Source: Escherichia coli (lineage in GTDB: Bacteria; Pseudomonadota; Gammaproteobacteria; Enterobacterales; Enterobacteriaceae). Taken from it: a stretch of DNA of 64,000 nt. Below the pieces are notes generated by a model. The model made no database searches. It had not been told where the DNA came from and was given only the letters and a program-made list of their open reading frames with translations. Shown here piece after piece: positions 20,744-57,622 of this stretch. Every line of letters begins with the position of its first letter. Within the stretch, counting starts at the first letter, position 1. Position numbers and translations under genes: made by a program. The DNA lies in NCBI RefSeq assembly GCF_024502345.1, contig NZ_JALDNN010000001.1, one strand, 5' to 3'.

Positions 20744-20917
20744 GTAGGCCGGATAAGGCGTTCACGCCGCATCCGGCGACAGGAGCCAAATGCCGGATGC
20801 AACGCTGGCGCGTTTTATCCGGCCTACAATGAGTTCAACATACTGATTTGTATGGTTTTGTAGGCCGGATAAGGCGTTCAAGCCGCATCCGGCGACAGGA
20901 ACTAAATGCCGGATGCG
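20744..20917. repeat. BIME: cluster of about 4 REP units in alternating orientation
   Basis: Repeated GCCGGATAAGGCGTTCACGCCGCATCCGGC and its reverse complement. Confidence 0.85.
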
Positions 20918-33353: not shown

Positions 33354-33477
33354 TTCCTCACGATTCTCCTTTGACGATCGCACTTTTTGCTCGTTATGAT
33401 GGCGTCGCTAGCCTCAGTAAATCCTTACTCCGGCGGTGCGCAACCCGTGCGCGTGAACCACTATCTGAATGCTCATC

Positions 33478-52708: not shown

Positions 52709-53797
52709 TCACGGCAGGCGGTGGCGGGCTTGATAATAAGCCTGCCAGTGAGCTTCTTTATGTGTGGCGACACGCTGTTCGAAGTAACGGCGCAGACGAG
52801 CGCGATCTTCTTCGTTATCTTTGACGATGGTTCCGGCAATACAGTCCACCAGATCGGCTGGCTCACCTGCGCGATTCGCTAAAAACCAGGCGCGGACGCC
52901 CACAGCGTGGGCCACGTTCACGGCTTCAGCGGTGGACATAATCGCTGTTAGTGTATCCATTGACGTTTTCTTTTCGCCGTTGGCACGCAGATCGCGGAAG
53001 GTGCGGACCAGTAACTCCAGTACCGCGTCAGGCACTTTATGCGGAATACCGCTATGGGCCAGCAAACGCGCCGAAGCACTGGCGACAAGCTCCAGCTCCT
53101 GGGCGAAATCCATAATCGGAAAGACAGTTTCAAAATCGAAGCGACGCTTTAGCGCAGCACTCATTTCATTGACGCCGCGATCGCGGGTATTGGCAGTGGC
53201 AATAATATTAAAGCCTTCTCGCGCATAGAGCTGACTGGCTTCACCAGTGAGTTCCGGCACCGTCATCACCCTGTCAGAAAGCATACCTAACAGACAGTCT
53301 TGCACTTCCAGCGGTGTACGCGTTATCTCTTCAAAACGGACGATTTTGCCGTCGCGCATTCCCTGGTAAAGCGGGGCAGGGACCAGCGCTTCCGTTGATG
53401 GACCATGATTGATAAGCAGGGCGTAGTTCCAGCCGTACTTGATTTGATCTTCGGTAGTAGATGCGCCGCCCTGGATGGTTAACCCGGCATCGCCGCTAAT
53501 AGAGGTTGCCAGTAATTCAGACAGGAGAGATTTTGCGGTGCCAGGTTCCCCCACCAACATCAAACCGCGTCCGGTGGCAAGAGTGACTAACATACGTTCG
53601 ACAGCGGAGGGACTAATCACCACTTTACGGCTAATATTTTGCGCGCTATCGCCAAGGATAAAAGCACGGGCCGCAGGCAAACTTAACTGCCAACCGGGCG
53701 GGCAAGGTGCGTTATCATTTTGTTTTAATTTTGCCAGTTCATCGGCGTATAACACAGCAGCAGGCGGACGCTGCAGATGATTATTCTGCGGTGACAT
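52709..53797 (-). CDS. yehL: MoxR-like AAA+ ATPase (362 aa from MSPQNNH start)
   Basis: ORF track (extension to 53863); Walker A GEPGTAKS and Walker B-like hhhhDE region. Confidence 0.85.
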   Translation of the reverse strand: MSPQNNHLQRPPAAVLYADELAKLKQNDNAPCPPGWQLSLPAARAFILGDSAQNISRKVVISPSAVERMLVTLATGRGLMLVGEPGTAKSLLSELLATSISGDAGLTIQGGASTTEDQIKYGWNYALLINHGPSTEALVPAPLYQGMRDGKIVRFEEITRTPLEVQDCLLGMLSDRVMTVPELTGEASQLYAREGFNIIATANTRDRGVNEMSAALKRRFDFETVFPIMDFAQELELVASASARLLAHSGIPHKVPDAVLELLVRTFRDLRANGEKKTSMDTLTAIMSTAEAVNVAHAVGVRAWFLANRAGEPADLVDCIAGTIVKDNEEDRARLRRYFEQRVATHKEAHWQAYYQARHRLP

Positions 53798-53908
53798 ATA
53801 TTCATCCCTGAAATGTATTAATGAAATAAACGATATTTTACGCGCAATAAATGTTTGGCGCATTAGTTGTTTGAGCGAAAAATATCTGGAAAGCAGATCA
53901 CAGTAAAT

Positions 53909-53991
53909 AAAAAAACCTGCTGGTGAGGCAGGTTCTTTTATTTACTATTTTCAGGCCTAACACCACAGCCTGTGCAACATCGTGTTCCAAC
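53909..53991 (-). ncRNA. orzP: Predicted ~80-nt divergent small RNA (OrzO/OrzP-like antitoxin RNA), copy A
   Basis: Minus-strand promoter (-35 TTGCAA 54021-54026, 17-bp spacer, -10 TATAAT 53998-54003); minus-strand intrinsic terminator (stem ACCTGC/GCAGGT then U7) at 53909-53934; 5' region repeats leader sequence at 54138-54157. Confidence 0.5.
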
Positions 53992-54020
53992 GAACGAATT
54001 ATAACCACGGCTGGACCCCG

Positions 54021-54048
54021 TTGCAATTAAGATAATGAGATTTATAAT
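54021..54048 (+). promoter_or_regulatory. Sigma70 promoter of peptide gene copy A (-35 TTGCAA, 16-bp spacer, -10 TATAAT); -35 shared with the divergent sRNA promoter
   Basis: Hexamers read directly; predicted TSS near 54056 gives a ~174-nt leader. Confidence 0.6.
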
Positions 54049-54229
54049 CCTGACTGTTGGGACGTTGCGCCGGATCGAACCTATTTCAAGTCCTGGCTAC
54101 CGGACGGGGGGTGCTGCAGGTAGTGCCCTGATCCGGAGTGCAACATCGTGGTCCAACATACGTAAACCAGTATCGACAGGCAGTGTAAGGGTAAGGTGCT
54201 GGTGTTGCGCTCCTTAATAAGGAGAGCGG

Positions 54230-54319
54230 ATGGACTCGCTGACACAAAAGTTAACCGTGCTCATTGCTGTACTGGAGCTATTAGTGGCTCTGTTACGGTT
54301 GATTGATTTGTTGAAGTAA
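54230..54319 (+). CDS. zorP: 29-aa hydrophobic peptide MDSLTQKLTVLIAVLELLVALLRLIDLLK (type I toxin candidate, ZorO/ZorP-like), copy A
   Basis: ATG with AAGGAG SD 7 nt upstream; single predicted TM helix; sequence as I recall ZorO-family toxins; symbol O versus P uncertain. Confidence 0.7.
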   Translation: MDSLTQKLTVLIAVLELLVALLRLIDLLK

Positions 54320-54341
54320 CGGGCAAATTGAAACGCATCTA

Positions 54342-54366
54342 AGGGGGAAAACCGCTTCCCCCTTTA
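54342..54366 (+). terminator. Terminator of peptide gene copy A
   Basis: AGGGGGA-loop-TCCCCCT followed by TTAATAAAAT. Confidence 0.55.
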
Positions 54367-54518
54367 ATAAAATGATTACTGTTTTTATTAATTCATCATA
54401 TAACTCATTTTTATTTATAAATTCATCGATTTTATATTCAACGCACCATTTGACCGGGATGTGAATATTTATGTTGGGCTATTGGCAAAAAATATCTGGA
54501 AAGTAGATCGCAGAAAAT

Positions 54519-54599
54519 AAAAAAACCTGCTGGTGAGGCAGGTTCTTTTATTTACTACAGTGACGCTAACTTGCTGATTGTGCAACATTTCGTACCAAC
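54519..54599 (-). ncRNA. orzO: Predicted ~80-nt divergent small RNA, copy B
   Basis: Minus-strand -10 TATAAT (54606-54611) and shared -35 TTGCAA (54629-54634); terminator hairpin plus U7 at 54519-54543; 18-nt complementarity (one G-U) to leader at 54749-54766. Confidence 0.5.
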
Positions 54600-54628
54600 G
54601 AATAAATTATATCCATATCCACACTCCA

Positions 54629-54656
54629 TTGCAATTCAGTGAGTGAGATTTATAAT
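54629..54656 (+). promoter_or_regulatory. Sigma70 promoter of peptide gene copy B (-35 TTGCAA, 16 bp, -10 TATAAT)
   Basis: Read directly; same geometry as copy A. Confidence 0.6.
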
Positions 54657-54837
54657 CCTGCCCGTTGGGAGGTTGTGCCGGATCGGACCAATTTTAAGTC
54701 CTGGCTGCCGGACGGGTGGTGCCGCAGGCGGTGCCCTGATCCGGAGAGCAACGTTTCGTACCAACATACGTAAACCAGTATCAACAGGCAGTGTAAGGGT
54801 AAGGTGCTGGTGTTGCGCTCCTTAATAAGGAGAGCGG

Positions 54838-54927
54838 ATGGACACGCTGACACAAAAGTTAACCGTGCTCATTGCCGTACTGGAGTTATTAGTGGCTCTG
54901 TTACGGTTGATTGATTTGTTGAAGTAA
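54838..54927 (+). CDS. zorO: 29-aa hydrophobic peptide MDTLTQKLTVLIAVLELLVALLRLIDLLK (type I toxin candidate), copy B
   Basis: ATG with AAGGAG SD; differs from copy A by S3T only. Confidence 0.7.
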   Translation: MDTLTQKLTVLIAVLELLVALLRLIDLLK

Positions 54928-54949
54928 CGGGCAAATTGAAACGCATCTA

Positions 54950-54974
54950 AGGGGGAATACCGTTTCCCCCTTTA
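54950..54974 (+). terminator. Terminator of peptide gene copy B
   Basis: AGGGGGAA-loop-TTCCCCCT then TTTAAG. Confidence 0.5.
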
Positions 54975-54982
54975 AGAAAGCT

Positions 54983-55036
54983 ATACTCGTCATACTTCAA
55001 GTTGCATGTGCTGCGACTTTAATTATCTAGAGTATA
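54983..55036. repeat. Truncated (short-form) ERIC element: left and right termini without the central part
   Basis: TATACTCGTCATACTTCAAGTTGCATGTGCTGCG + ACTTTAATTATCTAGAGTATA; compare full copy at 23437-23563. Confidence 0.7.
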
Positions 55037-55354
55037 TTATTCTATTTCTTGGTTGAATATATTCTGTAGTTCACGATTAAAAATTGCTATTACAGTTTCA
55101 GGTGATTCACCTCGTAATTTCCGCTCATCAATACACTCATCTCTTATATAAATCAACGCATCATTTATTAGCGGGTCAGCATCTTCTCGATCACGTTGAT
55201 GAAATGTTGGATGTAGCCGGAATCGCTCCAGTCGATAGACGGAACCTGTAAATAATTCAGAGCATTTATGGATCTCAAGTCTGAAGGAAAACGGATCTTC
55301 AGGTACAGGGACCTCATAATCGTAAATAGCAACTAGCTCTTTTTGCACGATCAT
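55037..55354 (-). CDS. yehK: Uncharacterised small protein, 105 aa
   Basis: ORF track; synteny between yehL and yehI. Confidence 0.7.
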   Translation of the reverse strand: MIVQKELVAIYDYEVPVPEDPFSFRLEIHKCSELFTGSVYRLERFRLHPTFHQRDREDADPLINDALIYIRDECIDERKLRGESPETVIAIFNRELQNIFNQEIE

Positions 55355-55414: not shown

Positions 55415-57622
55415 TTAATGGAAAATGACGTCAGGTGCGCTTAACGCCTCACTCAAATCAAACACATCAAGTTCGGCAAAAGTGACGGATTTATTGTCAC
55501 GGTACACTCGAAGAGAACGGAAGCTCATTAGCGCTTTGCTATCAACATTGTAGTGGTTAAAACCGGGTGAAAACTTAAGGACCAGCCGGTACTCGCCCAG
55601 GTCATAGACAAATGCATCCTCATAGCCTGACTCCCAGCCTTTGTATCGCATTCCCATAAGCTGCCCAACGGTAGCGGATTTACCTTCCCAGCGAGTCAGG
55701 CTGTTACTGGTTGACTCGTCAGGTGTGAGCAGCACCGTGCACCGCGCCAACTGGCGAAAAGGCGGCATAATTTCGTAATCGGCAAAAAGCTGTGCAAATT
55801 CACTGCGCATTTCTACTGTCATTTCTAACGGGTGGGCAATGCCAATCAGAGCGTCCGCAGGCAGGTCAATTGGCTCATCTTGCGCATTGCAGAACTCCCC
55901 CTCTGCGGCCACACGAAAGGCGTTGAGTAAACAACGCGGTTCATTTGCCGGATAAGCCCCCCATATTAATCGCTGGGTAACCAGACGGGTAAAGGGATGA
56001 TTAACAAACAGAGAATGAAAATCTGCCAGCGACCAGCGTCGGGTGGTACGTAGGGCCGTTTCAAGACGCGGGAGCAGGTTTTTGCTCACCTGAGTGGCAT
56101 CTTTTTTTAGCCCTTTTAGTCGGGCCAGTGCCTCGGGCGCTTTCAGTTGATCGTCATCGGCGCGCAACCGGGGAACGCTTTTCTGGCGAACGTTTTGCTG
56201 ATCAAAGATAACCGGGTTGAGGTTTTCATCGAAGCGAACGGTAAACTGCCGGGGACCAAAATCAAAACTCAACGCCTGCGGATCATCAAGGCCCAGGGTT
56301 GGGACTAATCTGTCCGCTAGCTCTTCCTGGCTTAGCCCGCGATTTTCTGCGACCACCTGAAGAAATTCCGCCGCGTTATCACGTAAGGGGCGGGATTTCG
56401 CCCGTTGCGATATATGATGCAGCTGTATCAGCGCCATATCATTATTCATCAGGGTAAGGATGTTCAGGCCACTGACAGCACGGGCAGATTTGCCTTCTTG
56501 TGGCCAGCCGAGGATCTGTGTCGTTAGATCCCGTGCCGTGCTTTCGTCACCAAAGAGACTTAACGCCAGAAATGCCCAGTTGTCTTTTACGGGGGCACCA
56601 GCTTGTTGCCACGCAGTGAAGAGATCCCAGGCAAAAGCTGCCAGCGTTTGTGGCTGGCAGAACGTTTTCAGTTGTTCCAGCCCGCTATAAAAACGTCCCC
56701 CCTGGGTAAAGCGCAGCATTTCGCCGATAATTTCCAGAGCGTCATCGGTAACAGGTTGATTATTAGTGATAAGGCGCGGCCTGGACCACATTTGCGGATG
56801 CCAGAAATCAGGGGCTTTTGGAATGCGTGCCGGGTAAATCTCTATTGGACTCTGTTTAAGTAATTGTTCCAGGGCAGGCCATAGATCTGTACGCTGCCAA
56901 CGATTGGCTACAGTTTGTAGCAATTCGCCATGCCCATGTTCGTAAAGTAAACGCAGGGCAAGTAATGCAGCTTCGCTTTTATCGCTAGATTTGGTGAAGA
57001 CAAGAGGGATAAGTGCAGTAGCCGTATGTTCCGGCCATTGTAAAATCCACTGGCGAGCCAGATTACGCTGGCCCGCAAAACGCTGCCAGCAGCTTTCCTC
57101 TGCCAGAGAGAGATGCTTACGCAGTCGGAGATCGAATTCGTTATAGGTTTCTGAGCGATAACCATAGCCATAATCCTCGTCCTGATACTGCAATGTCACT
57201 ACCAGAGGATCACTCTCATAACACCGCGCAATAAACTGGCGTGCAATCACCACCTCAGTCGCATATTCCAGCCCCTCTTGTTGGACGATTTCGTCGAGCA
57301 ACTGTTGGCTGTCATTTTGCGCGATACAGGCTAGCGCCGCCATTGTCCGGGGCGGGATTGAGGGTTTGTGTTCGCCGATCAAGTTGATGGCCTGCGTGAT
57401 GGCGGACTGCCACTCCAGTGAAAAATTTTCATAACGCCAGACAATGTTTTTTTTCTTCTCAGCTTTTTGTAGCAATTCATCACCCAGTGTCTGAATGATG
57501 CTTTCAGTGATAACAGGCACTGGTTCGCCCGGCCAATTGCGATGGCTGAGTGGTGTTTTACCATTTTTATATTTCAGTTCCAGTTGGGCGTTATCAGCCA
57601 GCCACGGTAATTCCTTGTCCAT
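55415..57622 (-). CDS. yehI: DUF4132-family protein, 735 aa; shorter paralog of the adjacent 1264-aa gene
   Basis: ORF track; ATG with AAGGAAAG SD 9 nt after the upstream stop; aligns to the longer paralog from about residue 105 and skips its central ~420 residues. Confidence 0.7.
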   Translation of the reverse strand: MDKELPWLADNAQLELKYKNGKTPLSHRNWPGEPVPVITESIIQTLGDELLQKAEKKKNIVWRYENFSLEWQSAITQAINLIGEHKPSIPPRTMAALACIAQNDSQQLLDEIVQQEGLEYATEVVIARQFIARCYESDPLVVTLQYQDEDYGYGYRSETYNEFDLRLRKHLSLAEESCWQRFAGQRNLARQWILQWPEHTATALIPLVFTKSSDKSEAALLALRLLYEHGHGELLQTVANRWQRTDLWPALEQLLKQSPIEIYPARIPKAPDFWHPQMWSRPRLITNNQPVTDDALEIIGEMLRFTQGGRFYSGLEQLKTFCQPQTLAAFAWDLFTAWQQAGAPVKDNWAFLALSLFGDESTARDLTTQILGWPQEGKSARAVSGLNILTLMNNDMALIQLHHISQRAKSRPLRDNAAEFLQVVAENRGLSQEELADRLVPTLGLDDPQALSFDFGPRQFTVRFDENLNPVIFDQQNVRQKSVPRLRADDDQLKAPEALARLKGLKKDATQVSKNLLPRLETALRTTRRWSLADFHSLFVNHPFTRLVTQRLIWGAYPANEPRCLLNAFRVAAEGEFCNAQDEPIDLPADALIGIAHPLEMTVEMRSEFAQLFADYEIMPPFRQLARCTVLLTPDESTSNSLTRWEGKSATVGQLMGMRYKGWESGYEDAFVYDLGEYRLVLKFSPGFNHYNVDSKALMSFRSLRVYRDNKSVTFAELDVFDLSEALSAPDVIFH

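What the first reader, a model, noticed from the sequence alone, without database searches (positions are those of the whole stretch)
53876..54978. Tandem pair of type I toxin-antitoxin-like modules (29-aa hydrophobic peptide plus divergent small RNA) between yehL and yehK
Two ~610-bp units, about 90% identical, each hold a 29-codon ORF (MDSLTQKLTVLIAVLELLVALLRLIDLLK and the S3T variant) with a strong SD, a ~174-nt leader from a near-consensus sigma70 promoter, and a divergent ~80-nt transcript ending in a hairpin plus U7. The peptides are single-helix and amphipathic like TisB/DinQ/ZorO-type membrane toxins. This block is absent from the K-12 version of this interval as I remember it and matches what I recall of the zorO-orzO / zorP-orzP locus of O157-type strains.
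Basis: partly seen in the sequence, partly recalled or inferred. Interest (0 to 1): 0.85.

Follow-up and report, generated by a model that had tools for sequence, protein, structure and literature searches.

The report
Known zorP-orzP / zorO-orzO toxin-antitoxin pair

Summary
Window 53876-54978 carries two tandem modules, with a period of 608-610 bp and about 497 bp shared at 88% identity. Each module has a 29-codon ORF behind a 174-nt leader and a divergent sRNA of 81-83 nt.

- **Toxins:** the downstream peptide is identical to published ZorO. The upstream one is the T3S variant, ZorP.
- **Antitoxins:** both sRNAs pass Rfam RF02083 (OrzO-P) at 99.9 and 88.8 bits. They carry the published specificity triplets: ACG for OrzP and GAA for OrzO.
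- **Match to O157:H7:** the whole intergenic region differs from O157:H7 Sakai at only 7 positions, none in a pairing site, promoter hexamer or codon-changing position.
- **Published function:** toxicity, rescue by OrzO, RNase III dependence and 5' processing are all published for this same locus in O157:H7 EDL933.

One correction is needed. K-12 is not empty here: it keeps orzP and the zorP promoter, published as OrzPmg.

Novelty is "already known" and interest is low.

One side result goes beyond the finding. Profile searches show the whole zor-orz module is homologous to dinQ-agrB/dql. They also show that the dinQ-type anti-anti-SD helix is conserved in zor. That helix is predicted to form in processed zorP and is disfavoured in zorO.

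The parts
53909..53991 (-). orzP antitoxin sRNA gene (83 nt). The 5' end is GUUGGAACACGAUGUUGCAC with V1 = ACG at +9..+11. It ends in a terminator hairpin plus U7.
   Evidence: Rfam RF02083 at 99.9 bits over 53909-53984. V1 triplet and start inferred from PMC3919570. K-12 OrzPmg was detected by Northern (PMC11264685).
53998..54003 (-). orzP -10 hexamer TATAAT
   Evidence: Promoter scan. Same hexamers as EDL933 (PMC11264685, Table 3).
54021..54026 (.). Palindromic -35 hexamer TTGCAA shared by the divergent orzP and zorP promoters. Both inferred starts lie 35 nt from it.
54043..54048 (+). zorP -10 hexamer TATAAT
54056..54229 (+). zorP 5' leader (174 nt). The 5' segment +1..+21 is predicted to pair with +75..+102. 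The EAP region is 54128-54157, element 2 (GGAGUGCAAC) 54135-54144, the OrzP target 54138-54157, the anti-SD element 3 (GUUGCGCUCC) 54204-54213 and the SD AAGGAG 54219-54224.
   Evidence: Positions are taken by homology with the mapped zorO leader (PMC5397157).
54230..54319 (+). zorP toxin ORF, 29 aa, MDSLTQKLTVLIAVLELLVALLRLIDLLK
   Evidence: T3S variant = ZorP (PMC11264685). Z3290 was toxic on overproduction (PMC2887945).
54341..54364 (+). zorP 3' hairpin AAGGGGGAAAACCGCUUCCCCCUU, a terminator-like element with a weak U tract
   Evidence: The preceding GAAACG-N4-TAAGG block and the following CCUUUAA are conserved through dinQ/dql.
54372..54484 (.). AT-rich 113-bp spacer between the two units, with no counterpart after unit 2
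54519..54599 (-). orzO antitoxin sRNA gene (81 nt). The 5' end is GUUGGUACGAAAUGUUGCAC with V1 = GAA at +9..+11.
   Evidence: Rfam RF02083 at 88.8 bits over 54519-54592.. PMC3919570.
54606..54611 (-). orzO -10 hexamer TATAAT
54629..54634 (.). Palindromic -35 hexamer TTGCAA shared by the orzO and zorO promoters
54651..54656 (+). zorO -10 hexamer TATAAT
54664..54837 (+). zorO 5' leader (174 nt). The EAP region (+73..+102) is 54736-54765, element 2 (GGAGAGCAAC) 54743-54752, the OrzO target (+85..+102, 18 bp including one G.U) 54748-54765, element 3 (anti-SD) 54812-54821 and the SD 54827-54832. Published processing removes +1..+28.
   Evidence: PMC5397157 and PMC3919570.
54838..54927 (+). zorO toxin ORF, 29 aa, MDTLTQKLTVLIAVLELLVALLRLIDLLK
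   Evidence: Identical to the ZorO peptide sequence printed in PMC6669753.
54949..54972 (+). zorO 3' hairpin AAGGGGGAAUACCGUUUCCCCCUU

Best explanation
This is the chromosomal zor-orz locus of E. coli: two tandem type I toxin-antitoxin modules, ordered zorP-orzP (next to yehL) then zorO-orzO (next to yehK).

Each module has two divergent sigma-70 promoters that share one palindromic -35 hexamer. One promoter drives a toxin mRNA with a 174-nt leader and a 29-codon ORF for a single-helix inner-membrane peptide. The other drives an antitoxin sRNA of about 82 nt.

In the full-length mRNA, the first ~22 nt pair with the +73..+102 'EAP' region, and the SD sits in a local hairpin, so translation is poor. 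Removing the first 28 nt exposes the EAP region and raises translation.

The 5' 18-20 nt of the cognate Orz RNA pair with +83/85..+102 of that region. This blocks translation and triggers RNase III cleavage. A 3-nt variable patch (V1: GAA in OrzO, ACG in OrzP) keeps the two modules from cross-talking.

Basis of each step:
- Shown in the literature for the EDL933 locus: toxicity of both peptides, rescue by OrzO, RNase III dependence, the V1 rule, 5' processing and membrane localisation.
- Shown here: near-identity of the sequence elements to those of O157:H7 Sakai.
- Inferred here: that the same steps operate in this strain.
For: - Peptides are identical to ZorO (PMC6669753) and ZorP (PMC11264685).
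- Rfam OrzO-P scores 99.9 and 88.8 bits, and these are the only such hits in the 64-kb window.
- V1 triplets and pairing (plus hand pairing): OrzO-zorO forms 18 contiguous pairs including one G.U. OrzP-zorP forms 19 of 20. Both satisfy the published rule of at least 15 continuous or 17 discontinuous pairs (PMC3919570, PMC11264685).
- All four promoters are -35 TTGCAA / -10 TATAAT, as in EDL933 (PMC11264685, Table 3).
- There are 7 differences from Sakai across the intergenic region. None falls in a pairing site or a promoter hexamer, and none changes a codon.
- Predicted folds put the 5' end on the EAP region and the SD in a hairpin. The unpaired probability of the Orz site rises after removing 28 nt: 0.35 to 0.58 for zorO and 0.31 to 0.48 for zorP.
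- The leader plus ORF is present in 3,394 of 5,426 complete E. coli genomes, with a median of 2 copies.
- Published experiments: PMC2887945, PMC3919570, PMC5397157, PMC9860968.
Against: - Nothing in the sequence argues against it.
- Whole-leader folding energies are not exceptional against shuffles (z = -1.4 and -1.0), so the structure rests on published probing and on conservation, not on energy alone.
- Rescue and cross-talk tests were published only for zorO-orzO. The zorP-orzP pair is inferred by homology, apart from ZorP toxicity and OrzP detection.
- The natural role of the locus is still unknown in the literature.
- RefSeq annotation is silent on all four genes, and NCBIfam has no Zor model.
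Confidence: 0.97

Rival explanations
1. Same locus, different activation mechanism. Translation is switched on by a dinQ-type exchange of mutually exclusive helices rather than by ribosome standby. After 5' processing, the SD-like EAP motif GGAG(U/A)GCAAC (+80..+89, element 2) pairs with the anti-SD strand GUUGCGCUCC (+149..+158, element 3) and frees the SD. Orz binding to +85..+102 displaces that helix and re-closes the SD.
For: - zor-orz and dinQ-agrB/dql modules are homologous over their whole length. At Z = 9.2 Mb, nhmmer gives E = 2e-11 for a zor profile against K-12 dinQ, and E = 7e-15 and 3e-12 for a dinQ profile against the window's two units. The conserved blocks are collinear.
- The 2:3 duplex scores -20.7 kcal/mol in zorP and -15.3 in zorO, against about -8 +/- 2.6 for shuffled element 2.
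- Cognate pairs average -16.0 against -10.7 for cross-family pairs, with compensatory differences: zor GGAGUGCAAC/GUUGCGCUCC, dinQ GGAGUGAGAG/UUCUCACUCC, dqlB GGAGGAGGUCA/UGAUUUCCUCC.
- Partition function for zorP: 2:3 probability 0.00 in the full-length RNA and 0.67 after removing 28 nt; SD hairpin 0.92 then 0.41, returning to 0.92 when the Orz site is blocked.
- The published GAG-to-CTC mutation in this motif lowers toxicity (PMC11264685), and the delta-82 truncation is rescued by opening the RBS (PMC5397157). Both results fit this model as well as standby.
Against: - Published lead and RNase probing of zorO found the RBS structure unchanged by processing (PMC5397157).
- My own calculation agrees for zorO: an A84.G mismatch costs 4.6 kcal/mol and the 2:3 probability is 0.04.
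- Element 3 is invariant within zor, so compensatory evidence comes only from comparison between subfamilies, using 14 sequences chosen by hand.
- These are thermodynamic predictions only.
Confidence: 0.3
2. The Orz RNAs, OrzP in particular, have a second job as trans-acting regulators of other genes, and repression of the toxin is only part of their role.
For: - K-12 and about 30% of E. coli keep an intact, expressed orzP with no toxin gene (the spread sample; PMC11264685).
- The orphan copy is 97.6% identical to the window copy across promoter and transcript.
Against: No other target is known or was searched for here. Retention may simply reflect a recent deletion shared by descent.
Confidence: 0.15
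3. The ORFs are chance frames in a duplicated intergenic repeat, or the modules are decayed and inactive in this strain.
For: RefSeq annotates nothing here, and no protein family model matches the peptides.
Against: - The peptides are identical to experimentally toxic ZorO and ZorP.
- The CDS is the best-conserved segment between the two units, at 96.7% with 3 differences of which 2 are synonymous.
- All regulatory elements are intact and the region is near-identical to Sakai.
- The locus is conserved in 3,394 genomes.
Confidence: 0.01

Closest known systems
zorO-orzO / zorP-orzP of E. coli O157:H7 EDL933 and Sakai (Fozo 2010; Wen 2014, 2017; Rfam RF02083)
   Same: Everything tested is the same: peptides, sRNA sequences and V1 triplets, promoter hexamers, 174-nt leader, RBS position, pairing sites, tandem order and the yehK-yehL location. 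There are only 7 differences in 1,240 bp against Sakai.
   Different: Only neutral-looking differences: 6 substitutions at 53890, 54122, 54286, 54474, 54612 and 54783, plus one 1-bp indel at about 54486. The strain background is not O157. The closest complete genome found is bovine strain E2865, at 99.8%.
dinQ-agrB and the dql (DinQ-like) family (Weel-Sneve 2013; Kristiansen 2016; Rfam RF02891; NCBIfam NF041472/NF041473)
   Same: - Divergent sRNA and toxin mRNA that share a -35 TTGCAA.
- The sRNA and the mRNA begin with the same 5 nt (GUUGG or GUUAG).
- Collinear conserved leader blocks: CCTG...ACGGGTGGTGC, GGAG motif, GACAGGCAGTG-N6-TAAG, SD hairpin, GAAACG-N4-TAAGG terminator.
- 5' processing activates translation, and cleavage depends on RNase III.
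- Significant profile-level homology.
   Different: - The peptides are not detectably related: no NCBIfam DinQ or DqlB hit for Zor.
- The Rfam AgrB model does not hit the Orz genes at E <= 1.
- zor has no LexA box, whereas dinQ has CTGTATGATTATCCAG.
- The pairing is shorter, 18-20 nt against 34 bp (PMC5066626).
- The literature treats them as separate families (PMC8594479) and states that no relationship has been proposed (PMC11264685).
tisB-istR-1
   Same: - Divergent sRNA with about 20 nt of pairing far upstream of a sequestered RBS.
- An inactive primary transcript that is activated by 5' processing.
- The sRNA binds the exposed standby region and RNase III cleaves.
- The toxin is a 29-aa membrane peptide (PMC5397157).
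   Different: - tisB is under SOS/LexA control.
- Full-length tisB mRNA is fully inert, whereas full-length zorO is translatable (PMC5397157).
- Sequence homology was not tested here.
shoB-ohsC
   Same: Divergent arrangement, limited pairing (18-21 nt) and a long processed leader (PMC3919570).
   Different: A different peptide and a different leader. Not compared at sequence level here.

Membership tests
zor-orz type I toxin-antitoxin family | A 29-aa Zor peptide (ZorO, or the ZorP T3S or ZorQ A20S variants) | tested here: met
   The ORF at 54838-54927 is identical to the ZorO sequence in PMC6669753. The ORF at 54230-54319 is the T3S variant, ZorP (PMC11264685).
zor-orz type I toxin-antitoxin family | A divergent Orz sRNA that matches Rfam RF02083 above the gathering score | tested here: met
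   99.9 and 88.8 bits against a gathering score of 60.
zor-orz type I toxin-antitoxin family | V1 specificity triplet at +9..+11 of the sRNA (GAA in OrzO, ACG in OrzP) | tested here: met
   GUUGGUAC-GAA at 54599->54580 and GUUGGAAC-ACG at 53991->53972 (PMC3919570).
zor-orz type I toxin-antitoxin family | At least 15 continuous or at least 17 discontinuous base pairs between the Orz 5' end and the cognate zor leader | tested here: met
   OrzO-zorO forms 18 contiguous pairs (one G.U) at +85..+102. OrzP-zorP forms 19 of 20 at +83..+102. The non-cognate duplexes are weaker: for zorP -26.4 against -39.0 kcal/mol, for zorO -29.5 against -32.9.
zor-orz type I toxin-antitoxin family | A 174-nt leader from a -35 TTGCAA / -10 TATAAT promoter, with the RBS at +164..+169 | tested here: met
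   The transcription starts themselves are inferred from published mapping, not measured here.
zor-orz type I toxin-antitoxin family | Chromosomal location in the yehI/yehK-yehL interval | tested here: met
   PMC2887945.
zor-orz type I toxin-antitoxin family | Peptide toxic on overproduction, rescued by the cognate sRNA in an RNase III-dependent way | not testable with these tools
   Published for identical sequences (PMC2887945, PMC3919570).
dinQ-agrB / dql family | Toxin peptide matches the DinQ or DqlB protein models | tested here: not met
   No NCBIfam hit at E <= 10 for ZorO, ZorP or the type-2 Zor peptide. DinQ and the Serratia peptide do hit NF041472.
dinQ-agrB / dql family | Leader and module sequence similarity to dinQ | tested here: met
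   nhmmer at Z = 9.2 Mb: E = 2.3e-11 (zor profile against the K-12 dinQ locus), and E = 7.4e-15 and 3.2e-12 (dinQ profile against the window's two units), with no other window hit.
dinQ-agrB / dql family | Four leader elements able to form mutually exclusive helices 1:2, 2:3 and 3:4 | tested here: inconclusive
   Helices 1:2 and 3:4 are predicted in both units. Helix 2:3 is strong in zorP and weakened by one mismatch in zorO. Published probing of zorO shows no RBS change (PMC5397157).
dinQ-agrB / dql family | LexA box in the toxin promoter (SOS induction) | tested here: not met
   There is no CTG-N10-CAG anywhere in window 53798-55036. The K-12 dinQ box is found by the same scan.

The most novel reading that the evidence does not exclude
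zor-orz is not a stand-alone Escherichia family. It is a branch of the dinQ-agrB/dql superfamily, which is widespread on conjugative enterobacterial plasmids.

The two share one ancestral module: a palindromic shared -35, an sRNA whose 5' end is a copy of the mRNA's own cis-inhibitory 5' end with a few inserted specificity nucleotides, and the same leader scaffold.

The SD-like motif in the zor EAP region would then work as an anti-anti-SD, as in dinQ. It would do so efficiently in zorP and poorly in zorO, so the two tandem copies would differ in how tightly they are locked.

The homology part looks solid at about 0.85. The shared switch mechanism is less secure, at about 0.3. The probability given is for the combined statement in its weaker form: homology plus at least partial use of the 2:3 helix.
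Probability: 0.35. Interest if true: 0.45.

Novelty: already known. Interest (0 to 1): 0.15.

Why it matters
For the finding itself, not much. It re-identifies a locus described in 2010 and dissected in 2014-2024. What it adds is practical:

- RefSeq/PGAP leaves all four genes unannotated in every genome inspected.
- No NCBIfam model exists for Zor, so a scan that recovers the locus from raw sequence is working as intended.

The side result could matter to type I toxin-antitoxin specialists. A demonstrated zor-dinQ/dql relationship would merge two families that databases keep apart. It would also link a chromosomal Escherichia locus to a plasmid-borne family found in over 2,300 plasmid records. 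Finally, it offers a concrete, testable alternative to the unproven ribosome-standby model for ZorO, including a predicted functional difference between zorO and zorP caused by a single nucleotide (+84).

Tried and rejected
- **Chance ORFs or a decayed locus:** rejected.
- **Mobile origin of this copy:** rejected.
  - Plasmid hits to the window locus are chromosome-sized or very large records.
  - The only 'phage' hits are two unverified 1.5-kb wastewater contigs.
- **LexA/SOS control, as in dinQ and tisB:** no box found.
- **Protein-level relation of Zor to DinQ/DqlB:** no hit.
- **Cross-detection by Rfam:** the AgrB model does not hit the Orz genes at E <= 1, so the family link is visible only with whole-module DNA profiles.
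- **Folding energy as evidence:** whole-leader z-scores are unremarkable and were not used as support.
- **Alignment-column covariation:** the MAFFT alignment A1 is out of register by 1 nt at the GGAG motif between subfamilies. I therefore did not run column-based pair counting on it and used per-sequence duplex energies instead.
  - One element 3 in that analysis (Serratia) was extracted wrongly and should be ignored.
- **First constrained-fold attempt:** one search used a wrong register and is superseded.
- **Robiginitalea hit in the genome scan:** a chance 20-mer match. About 0.5 such matches are expected, and there is no zor-like context.
Full report
**Observation**

- **Repeats.** A repeat search finds two direct-repeat families with spacings of 608 and 610 bp. 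A global alignment of the shared parts (53875-54371 against 54485-54979) gives 87.8% identity over about 497 bp. The remaining 113 bp of the period (54372-54484) is an AT-rich spacer that does not recur after unit 2.
- **Conservation by segment.** The 29-codon ORF is 96.7% identical between units, with 3 differences of which 2 are synonymous. The leader is 90.3% identical, the sRNA 79.5% and the inter-promoter region 73.4%.
- **ORFs.** 54230-54319 encodes MDSLTQKLTVLIAVLELLVALLRLIDLLK and 54838-54927 encodes MDTLTQKLTVLIAVLELLVALLRLIDLLK.
- **Promoters.** The scan finds exactly four promoter-like sites, all TTGCAA-N16/17-TATAAT, two on each strand.
- **Flanks.** The genes are yehL (52709-53797, minus) and yehK (55037-55354, minus), by annotation of near-identical genomes.

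**Identity**

- **sRNAs.** Rfam RF02083 (OrzO-P antitoxin) matches 53909-53984 (99.9 bits) and 54519-54592 (88.8 bits), both on the minus strand, against a gathering score of 60. These are the only such hits in the 64-kb window.
- **Peptides.** The downstream peptide is letter-for-letter the ZorO peptide synthesised in PMC6669753. The upstream peptide is its T3S variant, which PMC11264685 defines as ZorP.
- **Specificity triplets.** Wen et al. (PMC3919570) define a patch, V1, at +9..+11 of the sRNA: GAA in OrzO and ACG in OrzP. Placing +1 so that these triplets fall at +9..+11 gives two RNAs:
  - 5'-GUUGGAACACGAUGUUGCAC... starting at 53991, which is OrzP (83 nt to the end of the U7 run at 53909).
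  - 5'-GUUGGUACGAAAUGUUGCAC... starting at 54599, which is OrzO (81 nt, ending at 54519).
- **Order.** The locus reads yehL - orzP/zorP - orzO/zorO - yehK. This matches z3289 (zorO) before z3290 (zorP) in the EDL933 orientation.
- **Leaders.** The published 174-nt leader puts the zor starts at G 54056 and G 54664, 7 nt after each -10. The RBS at +164..+169 then reads AAGGAG in both units, as published (PMC5397157).
- **Match to Sakai.** The whole intergenic region differs from O157:H7 Sakai at 6 substitutions and one 1-bp indel in 1,240 bp. None falls in a pairing site or a promoter hexamer, and none changes a codon.

**Pairing**

- OrzO +1..+18 pairs with zorO +85..+102 (54748-54765) as 18 contiguous pairs including one G.U.
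- OrzP +1..+20 pairs with zorP +83..+102 (54138-54157) with one A.G mismatch.
- Non-cognate duplexes are weaker.
- Both cognate pairs satisfy the experimentally derived rule of at least 15 continuous or 17 discontinuous pairs (PMC3919570, PMC11264685).

**Mechanism**

The literature shows the following for the EDL933 locus:

- Both peptides are toxic when overproduced, and both sRNAs are expressed (PMC2887945).
- OrzO, but not OrzP, rescues cells from zorO. Rescue needs RNase III and not Hfq, and V1 decides specificity (PMC3919570).
- The full-length leader inhibits translation. A form lacking the first 28 nt is more active, and the +73..+102 'EAP' region opens on processing and is where OrzO binds (PMC5397157).
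- ZorO sits in the inner membrane and depolarises it (PMC6669753, PMC9860968).

My folds of the window alleles agree qualitatively:

- In both units, +1..+5, +9..+13 and +15..+21 pair with +98..+102, +85..+89 and +75..+81.
- The SD is closed by CUCCUU at +155..+160.
- Removing 28 nt raises the unpaired probability of the Orz site.
- The folding z-scores are unremarkable, so I do not count energy as evidence.

The anatomy also shows two design features:

- The -35 hexamer is its own reverse complement and serves both divergent promoters, and both inferred starts lie 35 nt from it.
- The Orz 5' end and the mRNA's own 5' end begin with the same GUUGG and share ...GUUGC. The sRNA therefore looks like the cis-inhibitory 5' segment with 5 extra nucleotides that fill in the V1 complement. 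The same pattern holds in the divergent relatives.

**Distribution**

- Of 5,426 complete E. coli genomes, 3,394 carry the processed leader plus ORF. The median is 2 copies and the maximum 4, almost all on chromosomes.
- An evenly spaced sample of hits to the whole region splits about one third two-copy, one third one-copy and one third a 290-bp remnant.
- K-12 has that remnant. It is 292 bp, 97.6% identical to window 53798-54089, and covers orzP, both promoters and about 30 nt of the zorP leader. PMC11264685 reports the same thing (about 30% 'orz-only' genomes, and OrzPmg detected by Northern in MG1655).
- RefSeq annotates none of the four genes, and NCBIfam has no model that hits Zor.

**Beyond the finding: relatives of the locus**

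A scan of one genome per species with a 20-mer from the zor leader returned three kinds of hit.

- **Classical zor-orz loci**, in Escherichia sp. MOD1-EC7003 and E. whittamii.
- **A divergent 'type 2' zor-orz.**
  - Its peptide is MDTLTHKL[I/V]VLIA[V/A]LELLLALLRLIDLLK, and it has its own pairing repeat.
  - It occurs in E. whittamii, in a Pluralibacter MAG and in two unverified wastewater contigs.
  - It occurs in 26-27 of 5,426 E. coli genomes. In the strains listed it lies beside a tyrosine integrase, and in the one locus inspected also next to tRNA-Asn, at varying chromosomal positions.
  - The non-E. coli copies sit next to Rfam C4 antisense and isrK RNAs.
- **A dinQ-agrB-like locus in Serratia oryzae**, with Rfam AgrB at 73.6 bits and a peptide that hits NCBIfam DinQ.

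**Beyond the finding: homology with dinQ-agrB**

- A DNA profile of five zor-orz units finds the K-12 dinQ-agrB locus at E = 2.3e-11 across almost the whole model, with E-values scaled to a 9.2-Mb search space.
- A profile of two dinQ loci finds only the two zor-orz units in the window, at E = 7.4e-15 and 3.2e-12.
- Alignments show collinear invariant blocks from the sRNA terminator through the leader to the mRNA terminator.
- The literature keeps these families apart (PMC8594479) and says no relationship has been proposed (PMC11264685).
- dql genes are very common on conjugative plasmids, with 2,326 plasmid records hit.

**Beyond the finding: a possible shared switch**

Kristiansen et al. (PMC5066626) showed that dinQ translation is controlled by mutually exclusive helices 1:2, 2:3 and 3:4. 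The equivalent elements exist in zor:

- Element 2 is GGAG(U/A)GCAAC at +80..+89, inside the EAP region.
- Element 3 is the anti-SD strand GUUGCGCUCC at +149..+158.

The evidence for a conserved 2:3 helix is as follows.

- Duplex energies are -20.7 kcal/mol (zorP) and -15.3 (zorO), against about -8 +/- 2.6 for shuffles.
- Cognate pairs across 14 family members average -16.0, against -10.7 for cross-family pairs, with compensatory sequence differences between subfamilies.
- In the partition function for zorP, helix 2:3 goes from 0.00 in the full-length RNA to 0.67 after processing. The SD hairpin drops from 0.92 to 0.41 and returns to 0.92 when the Orz site is blocked.
- In zorO, a single A84.G mismatch keeps 2:3 at 0.04. 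This agrees with the published probing of zorO, which found no RBS change.

This is a prediction, not a result. It is a rival to the standby model and suggests that the two tandem copies are not equivalent.

**Verdict**

The locus is already known and well characterised, so interest in the finding as such is low. The homology with dinQ/dql and the possible shared switch are the only parts that go beyond the literature I could read. Both need experimental testing and a larger comparative analysis.

Noticed in passing
window 54979-55036; second copy near window 23441; L003 (strain E15) 2110-2199: The stretch between the zorO hairpin and yehK is a short ERIC (enterobacterial repetitive intergenic consensus) remnant lacking the central part. 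A single-copy strain (E15) has a full ERIC here, matching primers ERIC1R and ERIC2 with 2 mismatches each. This repeat explains the extra BLAST 'places' per genome.
   Followed up: partly
L001 (K-12 BW2952) 1499-1804: K-12 keeps an orphan orzP gene, both promoters and about 30 nt of the zorP leader. The sequence then jumps to the yehK-proximal end. This is already published as OrzPmg (PMC11264685).
   Followed up: yes
L012 1230-1790, L011 440-1000, L015 8960-9530, L006, L007: A divergent 'type 2' zor-orz module is about 68% identical to the window units. Its peptide is MDTLTHKL[I/V]VLIAVLELLLALLRLIDLLK, and it has its own 17-21-nt pairing repeat. It occurs in 26-27 of 5,426 E. coli genomes. 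In the strains listed it lies beside a tyrosine integrase, and in the one locus inspected (strain D7) also next to tRNA-Asn, at varying chromosomal positions. It also occurs in E. whittamii and in a Pluralibacter MAG, where it sits next to C4 antisense and isrK RNAs. So a mobile-island-borne relative of zor-orz exists.
   Followed up: partly
L006 179-515 and L019 (Salmonella IncX1 plasmid) around 330-560: In two loci the sRNA gene is fused directly to the toxin leader at the pairing repeat, deleting both promoters and the 5' leader. This looks like recombination between the two direct copies of the pairing sequence.
   Followed up: no
L014 (K-12 3647653-3648527), L008, L016-L020 versus window 53876-54978: The whole zor-orz module is homologous to dinQ-agrB/dql at the DNA level (nhmmer E from 1e-11 to 1e-23). 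The shared features are the palindromic -35, the leader blocks and the terminator. The peptides are not detectably related.
   Followed up: partly
window 55415-57622 (yehI) and junction near 57075-57089: yehI is a 735-aa ORF here. Relative to both E2865 and Sakai, the window lacks about 1.4 kb inside yehI (full length 1,210 aa), and the region beyond it is only 91-96% identical to those genomes. The window also lacks the IS66 insertion that E2865 has in yehR and the IS629 that Sakai has at yehQ/yehR.
   Followed up: no
window 20747-20824 (+) and 33393-33473 (+): There are two other Rfam matches above gathering score in the window: naRNA4 (REP-derived nucleoid-associated RNA, 85.8 bits) and the Peptidase-S11 cis-regulatory RNA motif (72.8 bits).
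   Followed up: no
window 54021-54026 and 54629-54634: TTGCAA is its own reverse complement and serves as the -35 for both divergent promoters of each module. The same hexamer sits between agrB and dinQ in K-12. Occupancy by RNA polymerase in one direction might therefore exclude the other, but this was not examined.
   Followed up: no
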